A stretch of 64,000 bases of DNA, taken from IMG/VR virus record IMGVR_UViG_3300037454_000941, positions 138,063-202,062 of that record; one strand, 5' to 3'. This DNA comes from a virus. Taxonomy: Duplodnaviria; Heunggongvirae; Uroviricota; Caudoviricetes. The notes beneath the pieces were generated by a model. The model was not told the origin of the DNA, did no database searches, and worked only from the letters and a program-made list of their open reading frames with translations. This document shows, one piece after another, positions 18,614 through 36,716 of the stretch (position 1 is the first letter of the stretch; the number at the start of each line of letters is the position of its first letter). A program made the position numbers and the translations under genes.

Positions 18614-19486
18614 ATGAAATCAAGAAAATTAACCGCGGAGCACAGAATGCCTAACGACATCAGAAAGTACAACATCGGCATCTTCGAGAACACGATGGGC
18701 AAGATTAACGATGACCCTATGCTCGGGGATATCATCAAGAAGTCCATCTTGAACCAGGTGTTCCACCTGAAACCGGTGGATATCAAGTCCATCGCCCCGA
18801 TTTACGACGAGGATTGCCCGGTTACGGTCTCCCGCGACCGTTCGATTGACAGTGCCTTGAGGTGGAAGAAGGCCATTCCAGGTGGCAAGGTGGCCGTCCT
18901 CAACTTTGCGAGCGCGACCCGTCCCGGTGGCGGTGTGGTTACTGGGTCCTCTGCCCAGGAAGAGTGCATCTGCCGTTGCACCACGCTCTACCCGTGCCTT
19001 ACGACCCAGGAAGCGGATATCCGTTTCTATGACCCACACCGCAAGAACGTGGGCCCGTTGCACAACGACGACATCATCTATACGCCGAATGTCGCAATTC
19101 TCCGTAACGATGATTACGACTGGCTCCCTGAGCCGGTGTTCATCGACGTGATTACCTGCGCCGCGCCCAACCTGCGCGAGAAGAACATTTCCAAGTACAA
19201 CCAGGAACGTGAACCCGCGCCGGATATTTCTCCCGAGGAATTGAAGGCACTCCATGTGTCCCGTGCCCGTCAGATTTTGAACTCCGCGGCGCAGCAGTTT
19301 GCGGATGTGGTCATCCTCGGCGCGTTCGGATGCGGTGCCTTCCGTAATGACCCGGAAGTTGTCGCGGCTGCCTACAAGGAAGTCGTGCCGGAATTCCGTA
19401 AGCGCTTCAAGGCAATCGAGTTTGCCGTATATTGCCGTGGAGCGGACACCGAAAACTTTGAAGCGTTCCAGAAGGTGTTCGGATGA
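18614..19486 (+). CDS. bacterial-type poly(ADP-ribose) glycohydrolase-like protein (DUF2263 / macrodomain family)
   Basis: PARG signature GGG-X7-QEE present as GGGVVTGSSAQEE, preceded by VLNFASA. Confidence 0.7.
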   Translation: MKSRKLTAEHRMPNDIRKYNIGIFENTMGKINDDPMLGDIIKKSILNQVFHLKPVDIKSIAPIYDEDCPVTVSRDRSIDSALRWKKAIPGGKVAVLNFASATRPGGGVVTGSSAQEECICRCTTLYPCLTTQEADIRFYDPHRKNVGPLHNDDIIYTPNVAILRNDDYDWLPEPVFIDVITCAAPNLREKNISKYNQEREPAPDISPEELKALHVSRARQILNSAAQQFADVVILGAFGCGAFRNDPEVVAAAYKEVVPEFRKRFKAIEFAVYCRGADTENFEAFQKVFG

Positions 19487-20013
19487 TCGATTGCAAAGGT
19501 AATACTCTCGAAGCAATTGAGAAGGACTGTTCCCAACCGGGGTGGTATGCTATCTATTCGGATGGGCGCCCCAATGAGGCCGTATCTCCTGCCGTAATCG
19601 CCCAGGCGCGGCTCATTCAGCCGTTTGTCCCCATCGAAATGGAGCTTTTCCCGTGTCCGGACGGTTCCGTACAGTGGGAAGATGCCGACCATACCCTCGA
19701 AGTGTATGCCGACAAGTTCAAGTACGATGACGAGGAAGTGTCCTTCGGGGATGCGGTTGAAAAATTGAATGCTCTTGATTACAATGAGCGCGAGTTCAAG
19801 CTGGAACTTACGTTTCCAAAGGAATTCCGCGAACATTTCCAGCGTGACCAGTTCAAGGACTCGCTTGGGAGGCTCGCGTTCGATGCACGGGAGCTCTTCA
19901 AGGAAAAGATGCTGCACAAGCCGAATACGCCGTGCACGTTGAGTGGTCTTGAAGAGGTTGAACTCATTGAGAAAATCAGGGATGCGGTCGCGTCCGGGAG
20001 GATAGTCAAGTGA
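19483..20013 (+). CDS. hypothetical protein
   Basis: 176-aa ORF. Confidence 0.55.
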   Translation: MIDCKGNTLEAIEKDCSQPGWYAIYSDGRPNEAVSPAVIAQARLIQPFVPIEMELFPCPDGSVQWEDADHTLEVYADKFKYDDEEVSFGDAVEKLNALDYNEREFKLELTFPKEFREHFQRDQFKDSLGRLAFDARELFKEKMLHKPNTPCTLSGLEEVELIEKIRDAVASGRIVK

Positions 20014-20255
20014 TTGAATGGATCCAGGATAACAAGTGGCGCATCGTAATCCCGGAAGGGACGATGCACAAGTTCCGCGTTGACAACAAGCCGTATGTTG
20101 TGAACCTCATGTGCAACAGTTTCAATGCGTTCCGCAACTATCTGCAGACAGGACGCCTTGGCTTGTTCGATGGCCTGTCCGCAAAGGATTGGGAAACTGT
20201 AAGGAAGATAGCCATCGGCAGGCGGGACATTCCGTTGAAAGTCAACCTTGCGTAA
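20010..20255 (+). CDS. hypothetical protein
   Basis: 81-aa ORF. Confidence 0.45.
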   Translation: MIEWIQDNKWRIVIPEGTMHKFRVDNKPYVVNLMCNSFNAFRNYLQTGRLGLFDGLSAKDWETVRKIAIGRRDIPLKVNLA

Positions 20256-20290
20256 GATTTAACATAATGCGGTTTCCAAATGACCGCATT

Positions 20291-20303
20291 TTTGCTATAT
20301 TTT
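20291..20303 (+). promoter_or_regulatory. extended -10 promoter motif (TTTGCTATATTTT)
   Basis: 4 nt upstream of ATG 20308. Confidence 0.55.
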
Positions 20304-20307
20304 GAAC

Positions 20308-21654
20308 ATGAACGATAATAGCGAAATTTTCAAGAACAACATACCCGAACTCCCGCCATTCTCGAAGGAACTCGAACACTACTGGGAAGAACAGGTGACC
20401 AACGGTGCCATGTCCGAAACCGAGAAGAGGGTCCATGAAAAGGGTATCCTCCTCATCAAGGTGGCCGCGGGTTCGCAGTCGTTCGGTCTTGCCACCGAGA
20501 CTTCCGATGTGGACATTCACGGTGTGTATATCCTGAAATGGAGCGAGCGCATCAAGCACGATGCCCCGAGCCAGATTGCCGACGAGAAGAACAACGAGGT
20601 CTACTGGGACATCACGAAGTTCCTTACCGAGTTGAACTCCGCCAATCCCCAGGCCCTCGAAATGCTCTATGCTCCGAAGCATTGCGTATTTGTGGGCCAG
20701 TCTATCCTCGAAATCCTCCGAAAGAAATTTGACTTCCTCACCATGCGTTGTGACAAGTCGTTCTGCGAGTATGCCCGTGGCCAGGTTGACCGTGCGAAGG
20801 GCCTGAACAAGAAGGTATTCGATCCGCAGCCGGAGAGGCGCCCGCGTTTCGTCGATTTCATCTATGTCCTCGATGGCAACCTCGCCACTCCCCTCATGGA
20901 ATGGATTAAGGCCAATTATCGCGGCAAGCCGGAAGAAGTCCAGCGTTGGTTCTCCATCGCCCGGATCGACCATGGCGATTGCATCTACGCGGTGTATTTC
21001 CAGAAGAAGTCGCTGTCCATCAGTATCCGCGAATTCGTCCGGAAATGCCTCTCCAAGGTATTCAAGGGTGTCCGTCAGCTTCCCGAGCACAAGTGGCGTT
21101 GGGGCTATGGTGTCGTCCGTGACATCGAGCGCAGCGATGATATTCAACTCAACTCCATCCCGAAGGGTTTGAGCCCTGTTGCCCATATCTTTGTGAACCG
21201 CAACGACTTTGCGCGTAAGTGCAAGAAGTGGCACGAGTATTGGGACTGGGTCAAGGCCCGTAACGAGGAACGCTACAACACCACCTTGAAGCATGGCCAG
21301 GGCTACGATGCGAAGAACATCATGCACTGTGTCCGTCTGCTCCTTACCGCCTACGGTATCGCCACCGAGCATACCGTCCCGGTCTACCGTGCCGACAGGG
21401 ACCTCTGCAACAAGGTCTGCATGGATTACAACAAGCATCCGTACAGCAATGACCGTGACTTCCTCCTGGCAATCAAGAACGGTGACTGGACGTTCGATGA
21501 CATCATCGACTACATCGGCGAGCTTGGCAAGGAAGTGAACAAGGCGTTTGCCGCATCCGGATTGAAGGAAAGGGCATATACACCGGAAGAAATCGACAAG
21601 TTCTCCGTGGAACTTGCCGAGAAGTTGCTTCCGATGGATTGGGCTAATTTCTAA
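20308..21654 (+). CDS. pol-beta superfamily nucleotidyltransferase (predicted nucleotidyltransferase, PF10127-like)
   Basis: GSQSFGLATETSDVDIHGVYI = GS...SDxD nucleotidyltransferase motif. Confidence 0.65.
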   Translation: MNDNSEIFKNNIPELPPFSKELEHYWEEQVTNGAMSETEKRVHEKGILLIKVAAGSQSFGLATETSDVDIHGVYILKWSERIKHDAPSQIADEKNNEVYWDITKFLTELNSANPQALEMLYAPKHCVFVGQSILEILRKKFDFLTMRCDKSFCEYARGQVDRAKGLNKKVFDPQPERRPRFVDFIYVLDGNLATPLMEWIKANYRGKPEEVQRWFSIARIDHGDCIYAVYFQKKSLSISIREFVRKCLSKVFKGVRQLPEHKWRWGYGVVRDIERSDDIQLNSIPKGLSPVAHIFVNRNDFARKCKKWHEYWDWVKARNEERYNTTLKHGQGYDAKNIMHCVRLLLTAYGIATEHTVPVYRADRDLCNKVCMDYNKHPYSNDRDFLLAIKNGDWTFDDIIDYIGELGKEVNKAFAASGLKERAYTPEEIDKFSVELAEKLLPMDWANF

Positions 21655-21670
21655 CAAAAAAGGAAACAAT

Positions 21671-22384
21671 ATGAGAAACAATGATAATGCAGATATCAAT
21701 GAACGTGTTGGTGAAGTGCTTTCCAAGTATGGCATAGCACTAATCTGTGACGATCAGACCATGGTGTCCAAGTTGATCCGCGGCAACCAGACGGTGGGTG
21801 AACTCGACTACACCACGGATGTCGCCAGTGGGGCGAGGAAGATGGTGATCAATTTCGAAGATGCCGGTCTCTTTTACATTGCGGAGGGTGGCTCGGACAT
21901 GGAAGCGGACCTGGCGTATCTCGAAGACAAGCTCCCCGAGATGTTCGTGGGCGGTGGCTTGAAAGTCAAGGTACAGTACCTCAACGACCGGGTGAAGCGC
22001 CTCAGCATGAACGCCAAGGGTGACTGGGTGGACATGTACGCAGCCGAGACGGTTGAACTGAAGCAGGGCGAACACAAGCTCATCCACCTCGGCGTGGCCA
22101 TGAAGCTCCCGGAAGGCTACGAGGCCCATCTTGTGCCGCGTTCCTCCACCTTCAAGAAGTGGGGTATCATCCAGGCCAACCATGTCGGCATCATCGACAA
22201 CTCCTATTCCGGTCCGGAAGACTGGTGGAAGATGTCCGTCATCGCCATGCGCGACACCGTCATCAACAAGGATGACAAGATTTGCCAGTTCCGCATCGTG
22301 GAACGCCAACCGAAGCTCTCCTTCGTTGAAGGCAAGATGGAAGGCGAGTCTCGCGGTGGGTTCGGTTCAACGGGTTCCAAGTAG
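21671..22384 (+). CDS. dut: dUTP diphosphatase (dUTPase) with N-terminal extension
   Basis: dUTPase motif 3 GIIDNSYSG and motif 5 RGGFGSTG at C-terminus; RBS AAAAAGGAAAC. Confidence 0.75.
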   Translation: MRNNDNADINERVGEVLSKYGIALICDDQTMVSKLIRGNQTVGELDYTTDVASGARKMVINFEDAGLFYIAEGGSDMEADLAYLEDKLPEMFVGGGLKVKVQYLNDRVKRLSMNAKGDWVDMYAAETVELKQGEHKLIHLGVAMKLPEGYEAHLVPRSSTFKKWGIIQANHVGIIDNSYSGPEDWWKMSVIAMRDTVINKDDKICQFRIVERQPKLSFVEGKMEGESRGGFGSTGSK

Positions 22385-22387
22385 CCG

Positions 22388-22672
22388 ATGTATCTGTATC
22401 GTCACAGGGTAATCCACCTAAATGAATTCTACAGGGTCTTGGGGGACCGGGTGGTGAAATTCACCCTGGTCCGTGACTCGTACCGGTTCTTCAACGGGCT
22501 TATAGTGTATGAGACCAATTCCCTGCGTGACGATTTGGACCTGGATACGGTTCCAATGAAAAAGAGGTATGAGATGGCGATGCTGCTCAATGAGGCACGA
22601 TATGCTATCCTGTCCACGCATTGGAAAGCAATGGTATACAACCCTGATAGGTTCATCAGAACTTGTCGATAA
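22388..22672 (+). CDS. hypothetical protein
   Basis: 94-aa ORF. Confidence 0.35.
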   Translation: MYLYRHRVIHLNEFYRVLGDRVVKFTLVRDSYRFFNGLIVYETNSLRDDLDLDTVPMKKRYEMAMLLNEARYAILSTHWKAMVYNPDRFIRTCR

Positions 22673-22692
22673 CTAAACCCGGAGAGGAAACC

Positions 22693-23094
22693 ATGAAGTT
22701 CACTAAACTATCAACCGAAAAACAGATTGCTATATTTGAGAAGGTAAAAGCCATTTTTGGTGAATTCAAGGGGTTGGTCTGTAGGACGGCTGAACCATGT
22801 GATGGCATGGTTGGTGAATACAATATCGCCGCGTGCATTAAGCATCCGGCATTTATGGACGGGTCGGCGCTAATTGCAGTCTACGATGGCATTAGTGGAA
22901 AGCTATCGGTATATGATTACCTAAAAGTATGCTATGGCGGTCTGGGTTTCGGGTCGTGCGGAAAGGATCTTGATGTCGTTCGTGATCATGATGAGATCGT
23001 GAATAGAATCAATCAGGCCCTGTTAATTGCGTCCGCGCTTAAAGAAATTCCCATGGACATCAAATCCGTGGAAGCCCGGAATGCTGCGCGTTGA
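22693..23094 (+). CDS. hypothetical protein
   Basis: GGAGAGG RBS then ATG. Confidence 0.55.
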   Translation: MKFTKLSTEKQIAIFEKVKAIFGEFKGLVCRTAEPCDGMVGEYNIAACIKHPAFMDGSALIAVYDGISGKLSVYDYLKVCYGGLGFGSCGKDLDVVRDHDEIVNRINQALLIASALKEIPMDIKSVEARNAAR

Positions 23095-23105
23095 TAAGGT
23101 AAAAC

Positions 23106-23339
23106 ATGGATAACTCTGAATTATATAGGTCCATATGCAAACTACGGATAGCGCATGCCAAACTGAAAAAACACCTGGCATTTGAAAATTCTGACTATAA
23201 AAAATATGACGATTATATGCGGGAGCATTATTTCTGGAAGCATGCAGAAGAATACTGGCGCGCTAAATTATTAAGTTCTTGTAGTGTGCTGTCCATGAAA
23301 TCAAGTTTGCAAAAGGATGTCCAGCAACTATCCGCATAA
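23106..23339 (+). CDS. hypothetical protein
   Basis: 77-aa ORF. Confidence 0.4.
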   Translation: MDNSELYRSICKLRIAHAKLKKHLAFENSDYKKYDDYMREHYFWKHAEEYWRAKLLSSCSVLSMKSSLQKDVQQLSA

Positions 23340-23514
23340 TGTGGATCCGGAAGGTGTGCACATGCTGAAGAAGCGTGTAATGCGTTCGGCTCCGTTCACC
23401 TGCCCACGCGGCGCGAACCGGTATCTCGCAATGGACCACGCGACACACCTGACCGTGGAAGATATGCGTTTCGTTTTGTTCCCGGTGCGAGGCTAGTTGC
23501 CATATGGTTCCCGG

Positions 23515-23526
23515 TTTGCTACATTT
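23515..23526 (+). promoter_or_regulatory. extended -10 promoter motif (TTTGCTACATTT)
   Basis: 5 nt upstream of ATG 23532. Confidence 0.5.
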
Positions 23527-23531
23527 GCGGC

Positions 23532-24257
23532 ATGAATAGTATGCATACGATGAGTGACAAAGCCGACAGGTTGATTGATATCCTTGGAGCCGAGGATCCG
23601 GTACAGTCCATTCTCGACAATGGGGACCTGTTCCCGTTTGTCGAAAAGGAAATGATGGGGGTGGCTCATCCGAAGGTGCACTGCGAAGGGGACGTGTGGG
23701 AACACACTGCCCTCGTGATCCGCAGTTTGCGCCCAGGCCACGACTGGGTGGATGTCCTCATCGCCCTTTTCCACGATGCCGGCAAGAAGCGTGCGCTGGA
23801 AAGGAACCAGGGCAAGAACATGGCCGGGCATGAACTTTTTAGCCTGGACATATTCAACGAATGGATCCTGAAGGAAGTCGGGATGATGCTCCCGCCGATT
23901 GCACCGCTCAGGTGGGTAATCGAGAACCACATGAACGTGATTAACCTTGGCCAGGTGAAGTCGGAATACAAGGTCATGAAGATCGTGACCGACCAGAGTT
24001 TCCCCAGGCTCTGCACGCTCGGGTATGCGGATACCGCGGCCACTCTCGGGCCGGACATGAAGCCCATCCATGATTTCAAGAAGGAAGTGCTGGATGTGCC
24101 GAAGGTATCCGCTGGCTCGGCATGTACCAGCCGGCACCCATCGCGGTGGAAGAGGATTTCTACATCAATGGTGTCCCGGCGGTCTTCCTCAGGGAAGCGG
24201 TGGAGTTCGGGCTCAAACTGCAGATTAACGGAAGGATTACCGACCGTCAGTCGATAA
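23532..24257 (+). CDS. HD-domain phosphohydrolase (possible frameshift near 24100)
   Basis: AHPKVHCEGDVWEHT...ALFHDAGK HD motif; C-terminal 50 aa look like out-of-frame junk while overlapping ORF 24122..24352 continues plausibly. Confidence 0.6.
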   Translation: MNSMHTMSDKADRLIDILGAEDPVQSILDNGDLFPFVEKEMMGVAHPKVHCEGDVWEHTALVIRSLRPGHDWVDVLIALFHDAGKKRALERNQGKNMAGHELFSLDIFNEWILKEVGMMLPPIAPLRWVIENHMNVINLGQVKSEYKVMKIVTDQSFPRLCTLGYADTAATLGPDMKPIHDFKKEVLDVPKVSAGSACTSRHPSRWKRISTSMVSRRSSSGKRWSSGSNCRLTEGLPTVSR

Positions 24258-24351
24258 TCAACGGCGTACTCGGCGACAAGGCTTTCCGCAAGAGGATCGA
24301 CGAGTGGTGCAATATCAATGTCAAGATTGCCGAAGAAAGGAAGATGCACTG

Positions 24352-24633
24352 ATGGAAACGATTTACCTTGACAAGAAACACCGCGCAAAGAAAGATGGGT
24401 TTGTCTGGATTCCCCAGTGGAAGGGCCTGTTCTTCTGGCATCCGTACACCCTGTGGACTGCCGACACGTGGATGGGGGATGTCGTCATGTACAGCAAGAG
24501 GGCGACCCCGCCGTCATTCGACACCGGGGAGAACGCCATCAGGTTCATCGAGCGAGTGCTTGCTACAGGGAAGGACAGGGTTTTCCACCTTGATGATGAG
24601 AACGAATATTTACCTGGATTAAGGAGCTGGTAA
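24352..24633 (+). CDS. hypothetical protein
   Basis: ATG 24352 in-frame with track ORF 24304..24633. Confidence 0.45.
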   Translation: METIYLDKKHRAKKDGFVWIPQWKGLFFWHPYTLWTADTWMGDVVMYSKRATPPSFDTGENAIRFIERVLATGKDRVFHLDDENEYLPGLRSW

Positions 24634-25862
24634 TGAAACTCAAAAAGATTGCAGTATTCGGCGGTGCATTCGACCCGCTGACCGTCGGCCACGAAGCCAT
24701 CATCAATTCCCTTCTCGAACAGTACGAGACGGTACATCTCTATATCACCAACAACGACGAGAAGCACTATTCTGCTTCCTGGGAAGACCGACGTGGCATG
24801 GTCTCCGCCGCTTTCGGAAACGCGGTCGGTCGCACGCTCGAAGTGTTCCCCCAGAACACGCGGACATACGAGCTTCTTCAGTCCGGCTACAAGCCCGAGG
24901 ATATCGACCTTATTCTCGGGTACGACGAAATTGTCGCCCTGACGAACAAGACCTGGAAGAATTCCGATGAACTCCTGGGCACATACACCATCCGCGTGGT
25001 TCCGCGCGATTTCAATATGGTAAGGGAAGGCGAGTTTGCCAAGTTCGGGAATATTACGGGACTGACCCTCTGTGTGCCCGACGTGGCATCCACGGAGGTA
25101 CGCAACAAAATGTACATGAACCCCATGTACAATGGCAGCGACGTGTCCCTGTCGGTCGAGAAATATATCCGTATTAAGGGTCTATATCACCAGGTGCAGC
25201 CGCTCCGCCACTGGTTTGATGAATGGGCCGAACTGGCCAAGTACGAACCGGGCGACTACCCGAAACCATCGGTTACCGTGACCATGGTTGTCATCAACGC
25301 TCTCCGCGATGACCGCCTGGGTCGGCAGGACCAGGTGCTTCTTGTGCGCCGCAAGAAGTTCCCGTTTGCCAACTTCTGGTGTCTTCCGGGCGGGTTCACC
25401 AATCCCCATGAGAGTGTGGAGGAAAGCGCTGCCCGCGAACTGAAGGAGGAGACCGGTATTTCGATTGATGACCGGGCGTTCCACCAGTTGAAGGTGTATC
25501 TCCCGGATGACCCGCGAGCCGATCTCCGATACAGGGCCGAGCTTGAACAGAAGGTTCTTGATGCAAAGCGCCAGAAGCTGTATGACGACATCGCCAATGC
25601 AATTCCCGGATTGATCGATCCTGTCGTCAAGAAGATGAAACAGGACGAAATCGTGGCGGAACAGACCAAAATCGACACCATCCGCAACCACTGGGTGTAC
25701 GACGTGGCCCTCTATGTCAAGGGTTCTCTGTTCCCGCACGTATACGGCGCGGACGATGCGCTTGAAGCCACCTGGGTACCGCTGGAAGATGCCAGGAAGA
25801 CCAAGCTGGCCTTCCACCACAACAAGATTCTCGAAGACTATATCGCGGCTGTAGGGGGGTAG
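24633..25862 (+). CDS. bifunctional nicotinamide-nucleotide adenylyltransferase / Nudix hydrolase (NadM-Nudix-like)
   Basis: N-terminal IAVFGGAFDPLTVGH (GxFxPxHxGH) adenylyltransferase; C-terminal Nudix box LPGGFTNPHESVEESAARELKEETGI. Confidence 0.85.
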   Translation: MKLKKIAVFGGAFDPLTVGHEAIINSLLEQYETVHLYITNNDEKHYSASWEDRRGMVSAAFGNAVGRTLEVFPQNTRTYELLQSGYKPEDIDLILGYDEIVALTNKTWKNSDELLGTYTIRVVPRDFNMVREGEFAKFGNITGLTLCVPDVASTEVRNKMYMNPMYNGSDVSLSVEKYIRIKGLYHQVQPLRHWFDEWAELAKYEPGDYPKPSVTVTMVVINALRDDRLGRQDQVLLVRRKKFPFANFWCLPGGFTNPHESVEESAARELKEETGISIDDRAFHQLKVYLPDDPRADLRYRAELEQKVLDAKRQKLYDDIANAIPGLIDPVVKKMKQDEIVAEQTKIDTIRNHWVYDVALYVKGSLFPHVYGADDALEATWVPLEDARKTKLAFHHNKILEDYIAAVGG

Positions 25863-29702: not shown

Positions 29703-29715
29703 CGTAGGATGGAAA

Positions 29716-30276: not shown

Positions 30277-30350
30277 CACTAGTCTGGCCCATGTAGTGGC
30301 CATAACCCACACCAAGGTATCACTTGGGTGGACAATCCAGGAGGAAAACA

Positions 30351-30755: not shown

Positions 30756-31602
30756 GTCGGTAAAATTCCGTGACGGCTACCCGGTCGAGATTCGTGGGCA
30801 GGAAGGTGAGAACCATGAGCCCGGGGAGTGTCTCCTGAAGGGCCGCACCTTCAAGTTCACCCCCGGCCTCAATGTCCTCTTCGGACCCAACATGACCGGG
30901 AAGAGCACGATCTTGAAGACCATCGCGATCCACGGGCTCACGAGGTCCGCCTGGTCAAACCTGGACTTCATGGGTTACGAGGTCGGGAAGACCTTCGAGA
31001 CCCGCAACATGCAGGGATACTTTGACAAGCAGCTCAAATTCAACGCCAAGGTGGACATCGACGGACCGGTGTACTGGATGAATGATGAGGATGTCACCAG
31101 GCACCAGGACGGGAAGGGCAAAGGGTGCGGCTATGGACATGGCATGTTCGACTATGCGACCGAAAGCGTGATGACCATGGAGGGTTTCCGCCAGTCAGCT
31201 GGCGAGAAGGAAATGGTCCGGCAGTACAACACTCTCGCCAACATCTACGAGGGCAAGTGGGCTTTTTCCCTGGAAAAGTTCATGGAAGTCTACGAACAGC
31301 GCAAGGGTGCCGGGTTGAAGTATGTCAACACGATGCTCCGTTACGCGAAGCGCACTGTGCTGAAGGGCGGGCGACCGACAATCCTCCTGGATGAGCCGGA
31401 GCGACACCTCGGGTTCGAAAATGCGGACAGTGTATTCTCCGGGTTCCTTCCCCAGCTGGCCAACGAGTGCGGCTACCAGATTATCGTCGCCAGTCACTAC
31501 ATGATGCTGCCCTTCATGAAGGATTACAACATCATCTGGCTAGACCGTGACGAGAAGGCCTACAAGTCCCGTATTGCTGGTTTGGTTGCCAACGGGAAGT
31601 AG
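30748..31602 (+). CDS. P-loop ATPase (ABC/AAA_21-like ATPase domain only)
   Basis: Walker A GPNMTGKST, Walker B ILLDEPERHLG. Confidence 0.75.
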   Translation: MIKSVKFRDGYPVEIRGQEGENHEPGECLLKGRTFKFTPGLNVLFGPNMTGKSTILKTIAIHGLTRSAWSNLDFMGYEVGKTFETRNMQGYFDKQLKFNAKVDIDGPVYWMNDEDVTRHQDGKGKGCGYGHGMFDYATESVMTMEGFRQSAGEKEMVRQYNTLANIYEGKWAFSLEKFMEVYEQRKGAGLKYVNTMLRYAKRTVLKGGRPTILLDEPERHLGFENADSVFSGFLPQLANECGYQIIVASHYMMLPFMKDYNIIWLDRDEKAYKSRIAGLVANGK

Positions 31603-31646
31603 GAATGCTACATTTTGGGTATCAAAAACAAAAAAGGAAAAACACA

Positions 31647-32453
31647 ATGAAAAAAATCATCTCCATCTTCGCCCTGCTCATTCTCGTAATGTTCACGGGC
31701 TGCGCAAAAATCGACCAGACTGAACGCGGCGTCGTTCTTCACGGCGGTTCCGTATCCGGTACGGTTGAACCGGGCTACACGGCATACATTCCGATCTACA
31801 CCGAAATCGTGCACATGCCAGTCAAGGTACAGCTTGAATCCATGCGCATTGAGGCCGGCTCCCAGGACATGCAGCAGGTCACTGTCGGCGTGAACGTCAA
31901 CTATCATATCGATCCGGTCAAGGTTGCCGAAACATATTCCAAGTATGGTCGTGATGTTGTCGTGACGGCTCTTCAACCGAAAATGCGTGAAACCATTACC
32001 GGAGTGACCCCCCAATACAAGCCTGAGGAAATGTTGCAGAAGCGCGAAGAAGTTCGCCTCCGTATGGAAAACGCACTGCGCTCCAAGCTCGATTCGGCTG
32101 AATCGCACATCATTCTTGATGGTTTCACCATTTATGAATTCAAGTTCCTCGATAAGTTCAACCAGGCAATCGAAGACAAGCAGGTTGCTGAGCAGAATGC
32201 TGAAAAGGAGAAGAATGTTAAGCGGATGGTCGAATATCAGCGCGACCAGAAGGTTATTGCCGCACAAGCTGACTCATCAATCAAGGTCATGAATGCACAG
32301 GCTGACTCGATTGCAATCACCAAGGTATTGAAAGCACTCAATAACCCGAATGCGAGGATCTATATCGCCAAGCAGTGGATTGATGCATGGAACGGCGAAC
32401 TGCCGAAGGTCGGTGGCATTGACAAGATCATGCCCATTGTCGACATGAAATGA
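31647..32453 (+). CDS. SPFH/band-7 (prohibitin/stomatin-like) lipoprotein
   Basis: signal peptide with lipobox FTGC; coiled-coil C-terminal region typical of SPFH proteins. Confidence 0.75.
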   Translation: MKKIISIFALLILVMFTGCAKIDQTERGVVLHGGSVSGTVEPGYTAYIPIYTEIVHMPVKVQLESMRIEAGSQDMQQVTVGVNVNYHIDPVKVAETYSKYGRDVVVTALQPKMRETITGVTPQYKPEEMLQKREEVRLRMENALRSKLDSAESHIILDGFTIYEFKFLDKFNQAIEDKQVAEQNAEKEKNVKRMVEYQRDQKVIAAQADSSIKVMNAQADSIAITKVLKALNNPNARIYIAKQWIDAWNGELPKVGGIDKIMPIVDMK

Positions 32454-32488
32454 AAAAATTCTGAAAAATCATCAAATGTAGCTGAAAA

Positions 32489-32500
32489 TTTGCTACATTT
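32489..32500 (+). promoter_or_regulatory. extended -10 promoter motif (TTTGCTACATTT)
   Basis: heads an ORF-free GC-rich segment followed by tRNA-Gly. Confidence 0.5.
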
Positions 32501-32505
32501 GGATT

Positions 32506-32790
32506 GTAGTCGGTCGTTCTGCCCCAAGAATCAGGGGATACCTGGCAGGGATCATGACTCAGCCATGGTTGAGCGGCACGGAGCCATTCCGCGAAGTGGT
32601 ACTGCGCCATCGCAGTCGTACCGATGGCCGAGCACGCCTAGCTCGCCCCTCGTATACCGCGAATAGGACATTGCCAGCGGACCGGTGACGCACCGGTGCG
32701 CGGGGAGGGGAACATAGCGGCGCCCGCCCTGGGGTAAAGGGAAAACGGTTGAACCGCCCGTTATCGTGGAAGTGATTCTCCACGAAGGTT
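32506..32790 (+). ncRNA. candidate structured ncRNA (class unknown), co-transcribed with tRNA-Gly
   Basis: about 285 nt GC-rich, no ORF over 40 codons, long-range complementarity (ACCGGTGACGCACCGGTG hairpin, GGGG...CCCC blocks); lies between a promoter motif and a tRNA. Confidence 0.4.
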
Positions 32791-32793
32791 TAT

Positions 32794-32868
32794 GCGGGAG
32801 TAGCTCAGTTGGTAGAGCGCGGCATTCCCATTGCCGAGATTTCGAGGGTTCGAGTCCCTTCTCCCGCT
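32794..32868 (+). tRNA. tRNA-Gly (CCC)
   Basis: acceptor GCGGGAG/CTCCCGC, AC stem CGGCA/TGCCG loop TTCCCAT, T-loop TTCGAGT. Confidence 0.65.
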
Positions 32869-32887
32869 CGAATACGTGGAGATAACT

Positions 32888-33148
32888 ATGGCGTTGATTA
32901 AAACACCGGAAAAGAAGACCTGGACGGAGTTCCGCGAAAGCGGTCTTCTTCTTTTTGTAAATACATTTTTACACATCTTCGGATGGGTAATTGTCATCGA
33001 GATGGATGATGATGGAAACGAGAGCGCGTATCCGGCCCGCACGTCCTGGCGAGGGTTCCCCGAGGATGCGATGGACCGGGCGTACAAGCGAGTGACCAAG
33101 ACGATGGAGGACAACCTCCCTCAACTGCTCGAAGATACCAAGGAGTAG
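32888..33148 (+). CDS. hypothetical protein
   Basis: 86-aa ORF after GAGATAACT RBS-like. Confidence 0.45.
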   Translation: MALIKTPEKKTWTEFRESGLLLFVNTFLHIFGWVIVIEMDDDGNESAYPARTSWRGFPEDAMDRAYKRVTKTMEDNLPQLLEDTKE

Positions 33149-33151
33149 GTC

Positions 33152-33964
33152 ATGGCCGTAGATTTCGATGAACTCAATTTCAGCGACGTTGGCGAGAACC
33201 GCAAGGATGCCTTCTATAGATGGGCATTGTCCTATGATTTTTCACATACGCCTTGGTCTTCATTCCCTGATTCTTTCAAGGATGTCAAGTACCTGCGTTT
33301 CCGTTGGAATCCGCAGACCGAGAAGGGTTTCGAGGTTGCCGTTATAGCCGAACCGGACAAAGGTACCTACAGGGTATGCAACGTGACCCCTACCGTGATG
33401 TCCAAGTTTACCCCCACCGAATACAATGCCTGCCTTGCAATGTTCATTGACAATGTACTCGACAGGTACAATGCCGAGGAAGGTAACCATCTCCTGATCA
33501 ACCACGAAAAATTCGGCGGCAAGCTGACATACACGCACGGTGGTGACATCAAGGACAATTGGACGCATCAGGACGACCTGAACATGCTGAATGCCATGAT
33601 GCGAGAACTGTGCTATGGCCGACTCGAACTCATGGTCGATGTATATAACCGTCATTCACATGAAATCATGTCAATGGAAAGTTTCTCGCATATCGTTGAC
33701 CAGATTGTCGATATCATCACCGGGCAACTTCTGCGCCCCGGGGACTGCGACCTGGTCATGGCAACTCAGTGCTTTGTGGCCACGTGCATGAAGAAGCAGG
33801 TGCCGGATTCCAACCGGTTCGACGTGTTCCTTAGTGACGGGTTCCAGACTCAGCTCTCGACACTGCTTAACGTGGACTATGCCGCATTGGATGCAGCAAT
33901 TCGGGTTGGTAGCATTCACGTGGATCTCAAAACACTGTTCACCGAATCGAAGAAGGATGGGTGA
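33152..33964 (+). CDS. hypothetical protein
   Basis: 270-aa ORF. Confidence 0.6.
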   Translation: MAVDFDELNFSDVGENRKDAFYRWALSYDFSHTPWSSFPDSFKDVKYLRFRWNPQTEKGFEVAVIAEPDKGTYRVCNVTPTVMSKFTPTEYNACLAMFIDNVLDRYNAEEGNHLLINHEKFGGKLTYTHGGDIKDNWTHQDDLNMLNAMMRELCYGRLELMVDVYNRHSHEIMSMESFSHIVDQIVDIITGQLLRPGDCDLVMATQCFVATCMKKQVPDSNRFDVFLSDGFQTQLSTLLNVDYAALDAAIRVGSIHVDLKTLFTESKKDG

Positions 33965-34194
33965 CGATGAATTTAGAGGAGTTTCCCAAATTACCAAAAT
34001 TTAAAGTCGTAGACGGGTTTGGGTGTGAATGGACCGAGCACCAATTACGCATCGGTATATGGGCATTCGCAGTGATCGTCTTGATGGTCCTCCTGGTTTT
34101 GGGACTCTCAGCCATCACGACAAACATATTCGACCCATCGAACTTTGAGCGCATAGGGGATACAGACACATGGAAATTAAAGTTAGAGAAGTAG
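33961..34194 (+). CDS. hypothetical membrane protein
   Basis: 77 aa with TM helix. Confidence 0.4.
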   Translation: MTMNLEEFPKLPKFKVVDGFGCEWTEHQLRIGIWAFAVIVLMVLLVLGLSAITTNIFDPSNFERIGDTDTWKLKLEK

Positions 34195-34718
34195 AGAAGA
34201 TCCTCGAATTCATTGCCCTAAATGGCTATGATGCCGTCACCAAGGCAAATGAGGGAATTGATTCCATCAAGAAGTGGCAGCAAGTATCCATTGACGAGAT
34301 TCACCAGTTTGCATCCGTAATCAAGCGAATTGAGGAACCCGCCGTCAGGAAGATGTTGAAATCCGAGCTGCATTCCAGAAAGTTGCTTTACAAGAATTCC
34401 CTGCGGGCTATGATGAAGCGGCGCAGATTCTACAAGGCCGTGAAGGACTTCTTCTCATGGCAGCAGTATACCTATTATAGGCAATGCTTCAATATTGCTC
34501 AACCTGACCGGGCAGAACTTGCCGATACGATAGGATGGGAGGAAATATATGGTGATCTCAGGATGTTCATCCTTACCACTCCGTTCAAGCTGTATGGCAA
34601 ACCCATGCAGTTCATTGGACACCGCCTACCGCCTTGGATGGAGACTGCCCTGAAGCTCGATGCGGGATATGAGATCCATGCGGTAAAGTTTATTCCTAAG
34701 GACGAAAATAAGGCATAA
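34170..34718 (+). CDS. hypothetical protein
   Basis: 182-aa ORF. Confidence 0.55.
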   Translation: MEIKVREVEKILEFIALNGYDAVTKANEGIDSIKKWQQVSIDEIHQFASVIKRIEEPAVRKMLKSELHSRKLLYKNSLRAMMKRRRFYKAVKDFFSWQQYTYYRQCFNIAQPDRAELADTIGWEEIYGDLRMFILTTPFKLYGKPMQFIGHRLPPWMETALKLDAGYEIHAVKFIPKDENKA

Positions 34719-34719
34719 C

Positions 34720-35166
34720 ATGGGAATTAACTACTACCTGAAAAAGAAGAACCACCTGGCCGATGCAGCCGCCCGGCATGGCACCGGCCTCCATATCGGA
34801 CAGTCGGCCTACGGATGGGCATTTTCCCTCCACGTGGTACCCGGTATCGCGGAGAACCTGGAAGACTGGAAGGACCTGTGGTCCTCCCGTCCCTTTGTCA
34901 TCGTGGATGAATACGGGAACAAGGTTTCCAAGGAAGAAATGCTGTCCATCGTGACCGAGCGCGGAACCCTGTCACCCGAGCACGAGTATTCCAGCCATAA
35001 ACGTAGGAGCCCGGAAATCCCCAAGGACGAATGGGACAAGGATACGCACCTGCGACGGCATATTCCCGAGGTCAGGGCCGATGAAAGGGGATGCGTGGAA
35101 TATAAGGAATTGAACAAGATCAATTGGGGGTTGGGATATGACCTCCTGGTTGGGGAGTGGAGTTGA
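34720..35166 (+). CDS. hypothetical protein
   Basis: 148-aa ORF. Confidence 0.5.
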   Translation: MGINYYLKKKNHLADAAARHGTGLHIGQSAYGWAFSLHVVPGIAENLEDWKDLWSSRPFVIVDEYGNKVSKEEMLSIVTERGTLSPEHEYSSHKRRSPEIPKDEWDKDTHLRRHIPEVRADERGCVEYKELNKINWGLGYDLLVGEWS

Positions 35167-35168
35167 TT

Positions 35169-35330
35169 ATGGGATATACTGCGAAAGATTTGTATGAAGC
35201 GCTCGGGAAGATGATTGCCGACGGTCATGGCGACAGTTCGGTAAAGACAACGGACCAGGGCGGCAATGAGGGCGATGTTCTTGGGGTGTTCGTCAACGAC
35301 CTCGGCATCGTGGAAATTGAAATTGCATAA
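35169..35330 (+). CDS. hypothetical small protein (53 aa)
   Basis: fills the gap between genes, start 3 nt after previous stop. Confidence 0.3.
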   Translation: MGYTAKDLYEALGKMIADGHGDSSVKTTDQGGNEGDVLGVFVNDLGIVEIEIA

Positions 35331-35342
35331 CAGAGGTACAAC

Positions 35343-36716
35343 ATGGCACAGAAAGTAACCGAAAAGAAGAAACTCTCCCTTGCAATGCCGAACCGCAAGG
35401 GTCGTCGTAAGCCGAGCGCGAAGCTCATCACTCCTGCGGCGGCGAAACAGTATCGCCGCAATGATCCGAATAAATGGTGTGTCGATTACCTCACTAAGAC
35501 CGACACGTATAAATTCGGTATGGCCCAGCTTGTGTTCCACAAGCGCCGCAACGAGCGTTCCTACTGGGAATTCAAGCTCCGCTCCACCGGCGTGGACCTG
35601 ACCCCGTATTTCGACGAAATCAACCGTGAACTCGACCACCTCTGTACCCTCCGGTTTACCGAATGGGAAATCGAGGGCATTCGCAGGGTCATGCCGTGGC
35701 TTTCCGACGATTTTATCGAAAGTCTTAAAGATTTCCAGTTGAAGCGCGAGTATATCCATTGCGAGAAGAACCCGGCATATAACGGTGGGCTCCATATTTG
35801 GGCAGGCACCGCAGACCACAAGTGCATCCCGGCCATTCAGGCGACGTGGTTTGAAATCTATGTCCTCAAAATTATCCAGAACCTCTATTTCGATGACCTC
35901 GAAATTGACTGGGATGCCTCCAAGACGGCCCTGCGCGAAGCGGTCGCCAAGTGGAATGCCGCTCTCCGCCGGGGTGTGAAGTTTACCATTTCCGATTTCG
36001 GTGTCCGTCGTTCCATCGACGATGACTGGAACGAGTACATGGTGAAGTACATGATTGACTGCTGCCCGGCTTTCGTTGGCACATCCAACGTGTACCTGGC
36101 CATCAAGTGCGGCTGCAAGGCAATCGGGACATTTGCTCACGAACTCTATGCACTGTACCAGGGTATCGACACAATCCCCCTGCACCTGACCCAGGCTGCC
36201 GTTCTGAACGACTGGGCCGACGAGTTCCGCGGCAACCTCGGTATCGCGTTGTCCGACAACTTCGGATTCAAGGCGTTCCTCCGCGACTTTGACCGTTACC
36301 TGGCCAAGCTCTATGACGGATGCCGTCATGACTCCGGCGATCCGTTCGTGTGGGGACACATGCTCATCAACCATTACCGCCAGAACAACATCCCGTCCAA
36401 TACGAAGTGCGGATGCTGGTCCGATAGCCTCGACGTTGACCACTCCATCGCGATTGCTACCGAGTTCCACGAGGACATCAATGTCGCGTTCGGTATCGGC
36501 GGTTTTCTCGCTTGCAAGCTCGTACGTTTCAAGGGTGGCAAGACGCGGGATGCCCTCCGCATGATCATGAAGCTCATCATGTCCAATGGCAGATACTCGG
36601 TGAAACTCTCCGACTCTCCGGGCAAGGTGAACTGTCCCGATCCTAAGGTGGTCGAACGTGCGAAGGAAGCCTTCCACTACGAGCCCATTCCAGAAAACAA
36701 GGATGCCCTGGATTAG
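35343..36716 (+). CDS. nicotinate/nicotinamide phosphoribosyltransferase family protein (NadV/PncB-like)
   Basis: NAPRTase-family motifs TDTYKF, FTISDFGVRR (FxxFGxRR), AFVGTSNVYLA (GTSN). Confidence 0.75.
   Translation: MAQKVTEKKKLSLAMPNRKGRRKPSAKLITPAAAKQYRRNDPNKWCVDYLTKTDTYKFGMAQLVFHKRRNERSYWEFKLRSTGVDLTPYFDEINRELDHLCTLRFTEWEIEGIRRVMPWLSDDFIESLKDFQLKREYIHCEKNPAYNGGLHIWAGTADHKCIPAIQATWFEIYVLKIIQNLYFDDLEIDWDASKTALREAVAKWNAALRRGVKFTISDFGVRRSIDDDWNEYMVKYMIDCCPAFVGTSNVYLAIKCGCKAIGTFAHELYALYQGIDTIPLHLTQAAVLNDWADEFRGNLGIALSDNFGFKAFLRDFDRYLAKLYDGCRHDSGDPFVWGHMLINHYRQNNIPSNTKCGCWSDSLDVDHSIAIATEFHEDINVAFGIGGFLACKLVRFKGGKTRDALRMIMKLIMSNGRYSVKLSDSPGKVNCPDPKVVERAKEAFHYEPIPENKDALD

What the first reader, a model, noticed from the sequence alone, without database searches (positions are those of the whole stretch)
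18614..36716. Dispersed NAD/ADP-ribose module: NadV-like NAPRTase, NMNAT-Nudix fusion, PARG-like hydrolase
Three genes span this range. A NAPRTase-family protein (35343-36716; TDTYKF, FxxFGxRR, GTSN motifs) could make NMN. An NMN adenylyltransferase fused to a Nudix ADP-ribose pyrophosphatase (24633-25862) could make NAD and clear ADP-ribose. A bacterial-type PARG (18614-19486, GGG-X7-QEE) could remove ADP-ribose from proteins. Together they resemble the phage NAD-reconstitution strategies that counter NAD-depleting defence systems (Thoeris, DSR, SIR2/TIR effectors). An HD phosphohydrolase (23532) sits next to the NMNAT-Nudix gene.
Basis: partly seen in the sequence, partly recalled or inferred. 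Interest (0 to 1): 0.7.

Follow-up and report, generated by a model that had tools for sequence, protein, structure and literature searches.

The report
Jumbo-phage Preiss-Handler NAD synthesis genes

Summary
All three ORFs are real and their domain calls hold, but two labels are wrong. The phosphoribosyltransferase (35343-36716) is a PncB-type nicotinate PRTase, not NadV/Nampt. The fusion (24633-25862) is a NadD-type adenylyltransferase joined to an ADP-ribose-clade Nudix domain. In 17 of 17 related IMG/VR viral loci the fusion lies within 10 kb of PncB, usually in the operon PncB-fusion-PncA-NadE. That is the deamidated route nicotinamide -> nicotinate -> NaMN -> NaAD -> NAD+. The window's lineage has scattered these genes. 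No PncA or NadE lies in the 64 kb. A 203-kb proxy contig carries NadE about 27 kb upstream and no detectable PncA. Preiss-Handler clusters in gut jumbo phages of Bacteroidota were described in silico by Li et al. 2024, so this is a new member of a known kind. The PARG (18614-19486) is catalytically intact but absent from every compact NAD operon examined. It sits in a 5-kb block with a CCA-adding enzyme and RlaP that is 95.6% identical to the proxy phage, against about 70% for the backbone. Bacterial-type PARGs reverse RNA ADP-ribosylation, so an RNA-repair role fits better. The HD gene tracks the CCA enzyme and looks frameshifted.

The parts
35343..36716 (+). PncB-type nicotinate phosphoribosyltransferase (nicotinate + PRPP + ATP -> NaMN), with a ~45-aa Lys/Arg-rich N-terminal extension
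   Evidence: PF04095 + PF17767. TIGR01514 at 294.6 bits, above the 269.55 cutoff. PDB matches are PncB only, 1yir at 2.4e-56. H266, R222/R223, G246-T-S248 and R328-H-D-S331 are conserved in 100% of 120 homologues. 76.6% identical to the PncB of the compact operon in L006.
24633..25862 (+). Bifunctional NadD-type NaMN adenylyltransferase (residues ~1-195) fused to an ADP-ribose-clade Nudix hydrolase (~200-409), with a lineage-specific helical-hairpin insert (residues ~296-352)
   Evidence: Pfam. Best NCBIfam hit is NadD NF000842, covering 4-188 of the protein and 2-187/191 of the model. NadD motifs are conserved across the family. The profile matches NadD structures over positions 1-194 and NadM-Nudix/NrtR only over the Nudix half. 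AF2 pLDDT 89.9. Foldseek: NadD TMt 0.75-0.77, NrtR Nudix+ADPR TMt 0.73.
18614..19486 (+). Bacterial-type PARG (macrodomain ADP-ribosyl glycohydrolase). Not a conserved member of the NAD module; probably an RNA de-ADP-ribosylation/repair enzyme
   Evidence: PF10021, TIGR02452. DrPARG 5zde at 7e-32. QEE and GAFGCGAF motifs ~100% conserved. Context. Activity of homologues from PMC11833690.
16702..21669 (+). 5-kb block (CCA-adding enzyme 16974-18257, 115-aa ORF, PARG, 176-aa ORF, 81-aa ORF, RlaP nucleotidyltransferase 20302-21654) shared at 95.6% nucleotide identity with IMGVR_UViG_3300028797_000098
   Evidence: blastn of window vs L014. Pfam, PHROG and NCBIfam hits for CCA and RlaP. Synteny in L011.
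23532..24307 (+). HD-motif phosphohydrolase-like gene, apparently frameshifted near 24110. It co-occurs with the CCA-adding enzyme rather than with the NAD genes
   Evidence: H...HD motif and a Ser/Arg-rich out-of-frame-looking tail. The L008 homologue aligns in two frames, 23550-24110 and 24110-24307. Homologues carry PF01966. Co-occurrence table.

Best explanation
The window is part of a large tRNA-rich phage, probably a gut or rumen jumbo phage of Bacteroidota. It encodes two enzymes of the deamidated (Preiss-Handler) NAD+ pathway. PncB converts nicotinate + PRPP (+ATP) to NaMN. The NadD domain of the fusion adenylylates NaMN to NaAD. The fused Nudix domain most likely hydrolyses ADP-ribose to AMP + ribose-5-phosphate, which removes the NADase product and returns ribose-5-P toward PRPP. 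The final amidation (NaAD -> NAD+) needs NadE, and use of nicotinamide needs PncA. Neither is in the window. In most related phages all four genes form one operon, PncB-NadD_Nudix-PncA-NadE. In this lineage the operon has been dispersed: NadE probably lies about 10 kb beyond the left edge, as on the proxy contig, and PncA appears lost, so host PncA would be required. The pathway raises or restores NAD+ during infection. That would supply phage NAD-dependent enzymes and, by analogy with NARP1-3, blunt NAD-depleting defences. The PARG and the HD gene are separate from this. They belong to a tRNA/RNA-repair neighbourhood (CCA-adding enzyme, RlaP, PNKP-type phosphatase, 53 tRNAs), where PARG plausibly removes ADP-ribose from RNA 2'-OH or phosphate ends. 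Shown here: gene identities, catalytic motifs, fold, co-occurrence. Inferred: substrates, direction of flux, defence role, PARG substrate.
For: PncB identity. NadD-type N-domain and ADPR-clade Nudix. Compact PncB-fusion-PncA-NadE operons in divergent relatives: L001, L004/L005, L006/L007. Among 17 IMG/VR loci with a full-length fusion, PncB lies within 10 kb in 17, PncA in 16 and NadE in 13. NadE sits on the near-identical proxy contig 27 kb upstream of its CCA/PARG block, and no PncA was found on that contig. Published precedent: pncB-nadD-nadE clusters in 'Kuafu' gut jumbo phages with Bacteroidota hosts (PMC11662467). The PARG's nearest cellular relatives are Bacteroidales MAG proteins (~53% identity). 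Cultured jumbo phages Phosso and Atu_ph07 carry NadE, PncB, Nudix and NMNAT gene sets. PARG/RNA-repair reading.
Against: No enzyme was assayed. The NadD domain scores below NCBIfam's curated NadD cutoffs (67 vs 167 bits), so it is divergent, and NadD-family enzymes can accept NMN. No PncA or NadE lies in the 64-kb window, and the parent genome could not be retrieved, so pathway completeness in this phage is inferred from a proxy. The Nudix substrate is inferred from clade membership only, and the ~55-aa helical insert could alter it. PncB and the fusion are 9.5 kb apart here with unrelated genes between them, so co-regulation is not shown. A defence-countering role is by analogy only. The PARG's link to RNA repair rests on synteny within one phage clade plus a literature analogy.
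Confidence: 0.7

Rival explanations
1. One reading: a NARP2-like amidated salvage route. A NadV/Nampt-like enzyme makes NMN from nicotinamide, and an NMNAT-Nudix fusion converts NMN to NAD+.
For: The two-domain adenylyltransferase+Nudix architecture mirrors KVP40 NatV and bacterial NadM-Nudix; the top whole-chain Foldseek hits are 2r5w, 2qjt and 2qjo. There is a weak PHROG hit to 'nicotinamide phosphoribosyl transferase' phrog_448 at 1.2e-11. NadD/NMNAT-family enzymes can use NMN; eukaryotic NMNAT1 also matches the profile.
Against: The PncB equivalog is passed and PF17767 is present. The NAMPT_N domain PF18127 that defines NARP2 Nampt is absent. No Nampt structure matches at E<=1e-3. The N-domain has NadD motifs, not NadM motifs. 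Orthologous operons include PncA and NadE, which the amidated route does not need.
Confidence: 0.06
2. The genes are general auxiliary metabolic genes. They boost NAD+ supply for phage NAD-dependent enzymes (DNA ligase, dehydrogenases, RNA-repair reactions) or complement hosts that lack salvage, with no specific role against NAD-depleting defence.
For: Li et al. report NAD-dependent ligases in 90/174 NAD-jumbo phages and pathway complementarity with hosts. Osterman et al. found that NARP2 raises NAD+ even without a defence system. The genes sit among nucleotide- and tRNA-metabolism genes. No defence or anti-defence signature was found nearby (PADLOC).
Against: This does not exclude the counter-defence role. 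The fused ADPR-clade Nudix and the PncA in the ancestral operon are suited to recycling the two NADase products, ADP-ribose and nicotinamide. All three experimentally tested phage NAD pathways counter NAD depletion.
Confidence: 0.35
3. PARG, the Nudix fusion and PncB form one integrated ADP-ribose handling module. PARG releases ADP-ribose from modified targets, or cleaves ribose-ribose-linked signals such as 1''-2' gcADPR. Nudix then degrades the ADP-ribose, and PncB/NadD rebuild NAD+.
For: All three lie within 18 kb, and the same order is kept in close relatives L011 and L014. PARG chemistry yields free ADP-ribose, the presumed Nudix substrate (established PARG biochemistry).
Against: PARG is absent within 10 kb of every compact NAD operon examined (L001, L004, L006, L015-L029, L034). 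The PARG-bearing 268-kb phage L012 has no NAD genes within 10 kb. The PARG is exchanged together with the CCA and RlaP genes as a 95.6%-identical block, independently of the fusion (49% aa) and PncB (73% aa).
Confidence: 0.1

Closest known systems
Preiss-Handler gene clusters of 'NAD-jumbo phages' (Li et al., Microbiome 2024, PMC11662467; e.g. Kuafu_71 pncB-nadD-nadE)
   Same: Large tRNA-rich gut or rumen phages with a Bacteroidota host signal. They encode pncB + nadD (+ nadE) and are proposed to synthesise NAD+ independently and possibly counter NAD depletion.
   Different: Here the genes are dispersed (9.5 kb apart) rather than clustered, and NadE and PncA are not in the window. The paper does not mention that the nadD product is fused to a Nudix domain. 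It describes the BGC as pncB-nadD-nadE only and mentions phage-encoded pncA just once in its Discussion, whereas most related loci here have PncA inside the operon. Everything in that paper is in silico.
NARP2 (Vibrio phage KVP40 Nampt/NadV + NatV NMNAT-Nudix; Osterman et al. 2024)
   Same: A two-gene phage set of a phosphoribosyltransferase plus an adenylyltransferase-Nudix bifunctional enzyme that builds NAD+ from a pyridine base and PRPP. The ADPR-clade Nudix domain is also shared.
   Different: The PRTase is PncB (nicotinate, PF17767), not Nampt (nicotinamide, PF18127). The adenylyltransferase is NadD-type, not NadM-type. The route passes through NaMN/NaAD and needs NadE, plus PncA if starting from nicotinamide. 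No experimental evidence exists for this version.
Bacterial NadM-Nudix bifunctional enzymes (Synechocystis slr0787, PDB 2qjo; Francisella, PDB 2qjt/2r5w)
   Same: Same domain order and a closely related ADP-ribose pyrophosphatase Nudix domain. They are the best whole-chain structural matches.
   Different: The N-terminal domain belongs to a different adenylyltransferase subfamily. Profile positions 1-194 match NadD structures, while NadM chains match only through the Nudix half. An extra helical hairpin is inserted after the DPR motif.
Deinococcus radiodurans PARG DRB0099 and its RNA/DNA-repair operon (DRB0100 ligase, DRB0098 HD-phosphatase/PNK); S. coelicolor SCO0909
   Same: Best solved homologue of the window PARG (7e-32) with the same catalytic motifs. 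Both are embedded among nucleic-acid end-repair genes. DRB0099 and SCO0909 remove ADP-ribose from RNA 2'-OH and 5'-phosphate ends.
   Different: The phage neighbours are a CCA-adding enzyme and RlaP rather than a ligase and a kinase. No RNA ligase homologue was detected in the window. The activity of the phage enzyme is untested.
NARP1 (Adps + Namat) and NARP3 (PnuC + NadR)
   Same: Phage-encoded NAD+ restoration.
   Different: The enzymes and substrates are unrelated (ADPR-PP; nicotinamide riboside). No Prs/Adps-, NadR- or PnuC-like gene was found in the window.

Membership tests
PncB nicotinate phosphoribosyltransferase (TIGR01514 / PF04095+PF17767) | Scores above the curated equivalog cutoff and has the PncB-type N-terminal domain | tested here: met
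   TIGR01514 at 294.6 bits vs a 269.55 cutoff. PF17767 at 72.6 bits vs 32.6. NF003704 at 350.9 bits falls just below its 379 cutoff.
PncB nicotinate phosphoribosyltransferase (TIGR01514 / PF04095+PF17767) | Autophosphorylated histidine (GT-x-AHE) and PRPP-binding motifs (R-R, R-x-DSGD, GIG) | tested here: met
   G262-T-F-A-H266-E, R222/R223, R328-H-D-S-G-D and F383-G-I-G are present. H266, R222, R223, R328, D330 and S331 are conserved in 100% of 120 homologues.
PncB nicotinate phosphoribosyltransferase (TIGR01514 / PF04095+PF17767) | Prefers nicotinate over nicotinamide | not testable with these tools
   Supported only indirectly: orthologues sit in operons with PncA and NadE.
Nampt/NadV (the NARP2 phosphoribosyltransferase) | NAMPT_N domain PF18127 together with PF04095 (Osterman et al.) | tested here: not met
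   No PF18127 hit at E<=0.01. No Nampt chain among PDB matches at E<=1e-3. Only a weak partial PHROG hit at 1.2e-11.
NadD (NaMN adenylyltransferase) | GGxFDPx(H/T)xGH and SxTxxR signature motifs, with full-length homology to NadD structures | tested here: met
   G10-G-A-F-D-P-L-T-V-G-H20 and A152-S-T-E-V-R157. The first motif was found by pattern in most of the 120 homologues, and G10, F13, D14, P15, T17, S153 and R157 are invariant in the 52-sequence alignment. The profile matches 2h29 at 1.3e-17, plus 1yul, 1kam and 1k4k, over positions 1-194. Foldseek TMt 0.75-0.77, rmsd 3.2-3.5 A.
NadD (NaMN adenylyltransferase) | Reaches curated NCBIfam equivalog cutoffs | tested here: not met
   NF000842 at 67.3 bits vs 167, and TIGR00482 at 57.3 vs 112.45. 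It is a divergent member, so substrate preference cannot be assumed.
NadM-type NMN adenylyltransferase (as in NadM-Nudix and KVP40 NatV) | GRFQPxHxGH motif and homology of the N-domain to NadM | tested here: not met
   The motif is absent. 2qjo and 2qjt align significantly only over the Nudix half in sequence and profile searches.
Nudix hydrolase, ADP-ribose pyrophosphatase/NrtR clade | Complete Nudix box GX5EX7REUXEEXGU | tested here: met
   G254-FTNPH-E260-SVEESAA-R268-E-LK-E272-E273-T-G-I. G253, G254, R268, E269, E272 and E273 are invariant and E260 nearly invariant in 52 sequences.
Nudix hydrolase, ADP-ribose pyrophosphatase/NrtR clade | Closer to ADPR-binding Nudix proteins than to MutT/NudC types; ADP-ribose is the substrate | tested here: inconclusive
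   Clade membership is clear. NadM-Nudix models score 6e-17 and NtrR 2e-14, against MutT at 2e-5 and NudC at 3e-6. PDB matches are 2fml, 2qjt, 2qjo and 3gz8, and the DPR and LAFHH motifs are shared. The substrate itself is not testable, and the helical insert is unique to this lineage.
Bacterial-type PARG (PF10021 / TIGR02452 / DUF2263) | Family HMM above cutoff, GGG-X6-8-QEE catalytic loop and diphosphate-binding loop | tested here: met
   PF10021 at 107.9 bits vs 23.5, TIGR02452 at 182.5 vs 50. GGG105-107...Q115-E-E117 and G236-AFGCGAF are ~99-100% conserved.
Complete phage Preiss-Handler pathway (PncA-PncB-NadD-NadE) | All steps encoded by the phage | tested here: inconclusive
   Within the window only PncB and NadD are present. 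PncA and NadE are absent by Pfam and by tblastn with three phage orthologues each. The proxy contig has NadE but no detectable PncA. The parent genome could not be retrieved.
NARP-type counter-defence pathway | Restores NAD+ and rescues phage from NAD-depleting defence systems | not testable with these tools
   By analogy only. Li et al. also state that it needs experimental verification.

The most novel reading that the evidence does not exclude
The four-gene operon PncB-NadD_Nudix-PncA-NadE, recurrent in rumen and gut jumbo phages, may be a fourth, deamidated NAD+ reconstitution pathway (a would-be 'NARP4'). It would recycle both products of defence NADases: nicotinamide via PncA/PncB, and ADP-ribose via the fused Nudix toward ribose-5-P/PRPP. 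The NadD-Nudix fusion would then be a virus-associated architecture convergent with NadM-Nudix. In the window's lineage the pathway is being dismantled and shuffled by recombination. Independently, the phage PARG may be a tRNA-protecting enzyme that reverses RNA ADP-ribosylation by host or competitor toxins.
Probability: 0.4. Interest if true: 0.55.

Novelty: new member of a known kind. Interest (0 to 1): 0.3.

Why it matters
Phage restoration of NAD+ is an active topic (NARP1, NARP2, NARP3), but the deamidated Preiss-Handler version has so far been described only by annotation of metagenomic jumbo phages. This window corrects a tempting misannotation (NadV/NMN versus PncB/NaMN). It shows that the adenylyltransferase of this phage family is a NadD-Nudix fusion. 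It also shows that the ancestral unit is a four-gene operon that includes nicotinamidase. Together these give concrete constructs for testing whether a fourth route counters Thoeris, DSR or SIR2 defences. The PARG observation offers a candidate viral example of the RNA de-ADP-ribosylation activity recently shown for bacterial PARGs. None of this changes the overall picture, so the finding is a useful refinement rather than a surprise.

Tried and rejected
1. Megablast of 18000-37500 against INPHARED phages found no match. Protein-level relatives there are distant: PncB <=36% identity in 13 records, fusion <=25%.
2. I tried to recover the parent genome. An exact 40-mer was not in IMG/VR. An exact-protein lookup of 60059-61315 returned only a 5-kb Logan contig. 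I therefore used IMGVR_UViG_3300028797_000098 as a proxy.
3. I looked for PncA, NadE, Prs, NadR, PnuC and Nampt in the window. Pfam on all + strand ORFs of >=137 aa and tblastn with phage PncA/NadE from L001, L004 and L006 at E<=10 found nothing. The 192-aa ORF right after PncB (36719-37297) is not a degenerate PncA.
4. The Rfam scan found no NAD+ riboswitches.
5. PADLOC on ten ORFs gave only P-loop-level hits.
6. I tested whether the 176-aa ORF translationally coupled to PARG is a conserved partner, such as an ART. It is conserved only in the close clade (L011, L014) and not next to PARG in L012/L013, and it has no Pfam or PHROG hit.
7. A PDB sequence search with the HD homologue was uninformative (E >= 0.03).
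8. tblastn for RNA ligase, Thg1 and Metallophos homologues of L001/L004 found none in the window.
9. I considered that the HD gene belongs to the NAD module because it neighbours the operon in L004 and L006. I rejected this because HD appears only in loci that also contain the CCA-adding enzyme and is absent from most NAD-operon loci.

Full report
OBSERVATION. They lie in a tightly packed array of + strand genes with frequent 1-4 nt overlaps. Pfam gives NAPRTase + NAPRTase_N for 35343-36716 (1.7e-51 and 4.6e-20). It gives CTP_transf_like + NUDIX for 24633-25862 (3.9e-10 and 3.1e-18), and microbial PARG for 18599/18614-19486 (7.6e-31). The window also holds 53 tRNA genes and a tmRNA, a CCA-adding enzyme, an RlaP nucleotidyltransferase, a dUTPase, a PNKP-type phosphatase and two TnpB-like genes. 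It has no megablast match among 50,697 deposited phages. It is, however, 70-96% identical at the nucleotide level to a 203-kb IMG/VR viral contig. It is therefore part of a large, previously undeposited phage genome.

THE PHOSPHORIBOSYLTRANSFERASE IS PncB, NOT NadV. The protein passes NCBI's curated equivalog for nicotinate phosphoribosyltransferase (TIGR01514, 294.6 bits against a 269.55 cutoff). It carries the PncB-type N-terminal domain PF17767 rather than the NAMPT_N domain PF18127, which Osterman et al. used, together with PF04095, to recognise the Nampt of NARP1/NARP2. Every solved structure it matches by sequence is a nicotinate PRTase (1yir 2.4e-56, 3os4, 4hl7, 1vlp, 1ybe, 2im5). The phospho-histidine motif GT-x-AHE (H266) and the PRPP-binding arginines and RHDSGD motif are present, and they are invariant across 120 homologues. 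The enzyme looks active, but on nicotinate, giving NaMN and not NMN.

THE FUSION IS NadD + AN ADPR-CLADE NUDIX. The N-terminal domain has the NadD signatures GGAFDPLTVGH and ASTEVR. These are conserved throughout the family. NadM's GRFQPxHxGH motif is absent. A profile of the family matches NadD structures over positions 1-194 (S. aureus 2h29 at 1.3e-17, plus P. aeruginosa 1yul, B. subtilis 1kam and E. coli 1k4k). NadM-Nudix chains match only through the Nudix half. An AlphaFold model (pLDDT 89.9, pTM 0.81) superposes on NadD structures at TM 0.75-0.77 and rmsd 3.2-3.5 A. Its Nudix half superposes on the ADP-ribose-bound NrtR Nudix domain at TM 0.73. The Nudix box is complete. The nearest families are NadM-Nudix ADPRases and the ADPR sensor NrtR (6e-17 and 2e-14), whereas MutT and NudC models score only 2e-5 and 3e-6. 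A ~55-aa helical hairpin (residues ~296-352) is inserted after the conserved DPR motif only in the window's closest lineage. The NadD domain falls below NCBIfam's curated cutoffs, so it is divergent and its substrate preference needs an assay.

THE TWO GENES ARE FUNCTIONALLY LINKED, AND THE ANCESTRAL UNIT HAS FOUR GENES. Metagenomic relatives of the fusion sit in compact operons of PncB, fusion, isochorismatase-family PncA and NAD synthase NadE. These are L001 on a 112.7-kb contig, L004/L005 on a 52.3-kb contig, and L006/L007 with overlapping stop and start codons. A scan of IMG/VR found 17 viral loci with a full-length fusion, on contigs of 20-355 kb. PncB lies within 10 kb in all 17, PncA in 16 and NadE in 13, most often in the order PncB-fusion-PncA-NadE. 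This gene set only makes sense for the deamidated route: nicotinamide -> (PncA) nicotinate -> (PncB) NaMN -> (NadD) NaAD -> (NadE) NAD+. It independently supports the PncB and NadD assignments.

THE WINDOW'S LINEAGE IS A DISPERSED, INCOMPLETE VERSION. Here PncB lies 9.5 kb downstream of the fusion. The genes between them include a PNKP-type phosphatase, an AAA ATPase, a Band-7 protein and a tRNA. The close relatives L008 and L014 share this layout; L011 is syntenic over the CCA-PARG-RlaP-fusion stretch but ends before the PncB position. No PncA or NadE is detectable in the 64 kb, by Pfam on every + ORF of >=137 aa or by tblastn with three phage orthologues of each. The parent contig could not be recovered. 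On the proxy contig IMGVR_UViG_3300028797_000098, the best viral NadE hit lies about 27 kb upstream of the CCA/PARG block. That would place NadE roughly 10 kb left of the window if the genomes are collinear. No PncA was found on that contig. The NAD genes are also unusually mosaic. The window's PncB is 77% identical to the operon-type PncB of L006 but only 56% identical to that of syntenic L008. The fusion is 70% identical to L008's but only 49% to that of L014 and 29% to that of L006, while flanking genes are 70-99% identical. L008 has a GIY-YIG homing-endonuclease-like gene directly upstream of its PncB.

PARG AND HD BELONG ELSEWHERE. The PARG has all the catalytic hallmarks, but it is not a conserved neighbour of the NAD genes. 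None of the compact operons has one within 10 kb. A 268-kb phage with a 64%-identical PARG has no NAD genes within 10 kb. In the window it lies in a ~5-kb block (16702-21669) containing the CCA-adding enzyme, a 115-aa ORF, PARG, a 176-aa ORF, an 81-aa ORF and RlaP. That block is 95.6% identical in DNA to the proxy contig, while the remaining backbone is ~70% identical. So it was recently exchanged, or is maintained, as a unit with tRNA-repair genes. Lu et al. (NAR 2025, PMC11833690) showed that the bacterial-type PARGs SCO0909 and DRB0099 remove ADP-ribose from RNA 2'-OH (RhsP2 adducts) and from 5'-phosphate ends and protect cells from RhsP2. DRB0099 is the window PARG's best solved homologue. 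It sits in an operon with an RNA/DNA ligase and an HD-phosphatase/polynucleotide kinase. An RNA (tRNA) de-ADP-ribosylation role therefore fits the context better than a role in NAD salvage, although it remains an inference. Its nearest cellular relatives (~53% identity) are from Bacteroidales MAGs, which fits a Bacteroidota host. The HD-motif gene occurs only in loci that also contain the CCA-adding enzyme and is missing from most NAD-operon loci. In the window it appears frameshifted near 24110.

COMPARISON WITH WHAT IS KNOWN. NARP1 is Adps + Namat and NARP2 is Nampt + Nmnat. NARP3 is PnuC + NadR. None of these uses PncB. Li et al. (Microbiome 2024, PMC11662467) reported that 174 of 668 gut jumbo phages encode a complete salvage or Preiss-Handler pathway. 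Their examples include pncB-nadD-nadE clusters in the Bacteroidota-infecting 'Kuafu' clade, and they proposed a counter-defence role pending experiments. Cultured jumbo phages also carry such genes: Sinorhizobium phage Phosso has NadE, PncB, a MutT-like Nudix, an NMNAT and a 'hydrolase' as separate genes, and Atu_ph07 has an ADPR pyrophosphatase near PncB. The phenomenon is thus published, although only in silico. Three details appear not to be spelled out in the papers I could search. The adenylyltransferase is a NadD-Nudix fusion. Nicotinamidase is a regular operon member. The operon can be dispersed and partly lost.

VERDICT. This is a new, dispersed and apparently incomplete member of a known kind, the jumbo-phage Preiss-Handler NAD+ synthesis genes. 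It is not a NadV/NARP2-like system, and PARG and HD are better assigned to an adjacent tRNA/RNA-repair neighbourhood. Interest is modest (0.3). The most novel reading still open is a deamidated 'NARP4' counter-defence pathway, together with a viral RNA-de-ADP-ribosylating PARG. I give that reading a probability of about 0.4, and it would be of moderate interest if shown.

Noticed in passing
window 5383-9051, 45552-46630, 51468-57074, plus 32794-32869: 53 tRNA genes (ARAGORN) in three arrays plus a tmRNA at 52030-52390 (tag ANDAFACRMAA). Rfam adds one more tRNA-like hit at 7121-7213. This is an exceptionally dense translation-related region for 64 kb.
   Followed up: partly
window 51662-51890 (+): A full-length, strong HEARO RNA hit (RF02033, the IscB-associated omega-RNA family; 121.6 bits, E 1.3e-24) lies 140 nt upstream of the tmRNA, with no IscB-sized ORF next to it. 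It may be an orphan omega-RNA or the remnant of an IscB element.
   Followed up: no
window 3792-5183 and 55110-56408 (+): Two TnpB/Cas12f-like genes (OrfB_IS605 + Cas12f1-like TNB domains), each bordering a tRNA array. An HNH endonuclease gene lies at 2896-3570.
   Followed up: no
window 23532-24307: The HD-motif gene appears frameshifted near 24110. The L008 homologue (273 aa) aligns in one frame to 23550-24110 and in another to 24110-24307, and the annotated ORF ends in a Ser/Arg-rich tail. This is either a pseudogene or an assembly error.
   Followed up: partly
window 16702-21669 vs L014 260-5228: A 5-kb block (CCA-adding enzyme to RlaP, including PARG) is 95.6% identical in DNA to IMGVR_UViG_3300028797_000098, while the rest of the shared backbone is ~67-74% identical. 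This suggests a recent recombination tract between related jumbo phages.
   Followed up: partly
window 35343-35500 (PncB residues 1-52); P0121-P0147: Phage-clade PncBs carry a 35-65-aa Lys/Arg-rich N-terminal extension with a conserved 'KQYRRKNPxKW'-like motif. It is absent from bacterial PncBs, which start near TDxYK. Its function is unknown.
   Followed up: partly
window ~25518-25688 (fusion residues ~296-352): A lineage-specific insertion in the Nudix domain is predicted with good confidence as a two-helix hairpin. It is present only in the window and its closest relatives, such as P0006, and absent from the 358-376-aa relatives.
   Followed up: partly
L008 14680-15585; window 35157-35330: In the syntenic relative L008, a SegE-like GIY-YIG homing endonuclease gene sits directly upstream of PncB, and that PncB is only 56% identical to the window's. 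The NAD genes are more divergent between related phages than their flanks are, which suggests cassette-like allele exchange.
   Followed up: partly
window 9445-11778, 13790-14413, 15196-15927: A radical-SAM-like protein, an NADPH-dependent FMN reductase and a CoaE-like kinase are followed by DUF5662 and DUF1653 proteins. The same order occurs in L011. This cluster, conserved among close relatives, may be a modification or cofactor cluster of unknown role.
   Followed up: no
window 28756-29235, 40236-40832, 46655-47494: Further RNA/translation-related genes are a PNKP-type HAD phosphatase, a weak PTH2 peptidyl-tRNA hydrolase-like N-terminus and a NIF3/DUF34 protein. Together with CCA and RlaP they suggest an extended tRNA maintenance repertoire, but no RNA ligase was detected.
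   Followed up: no
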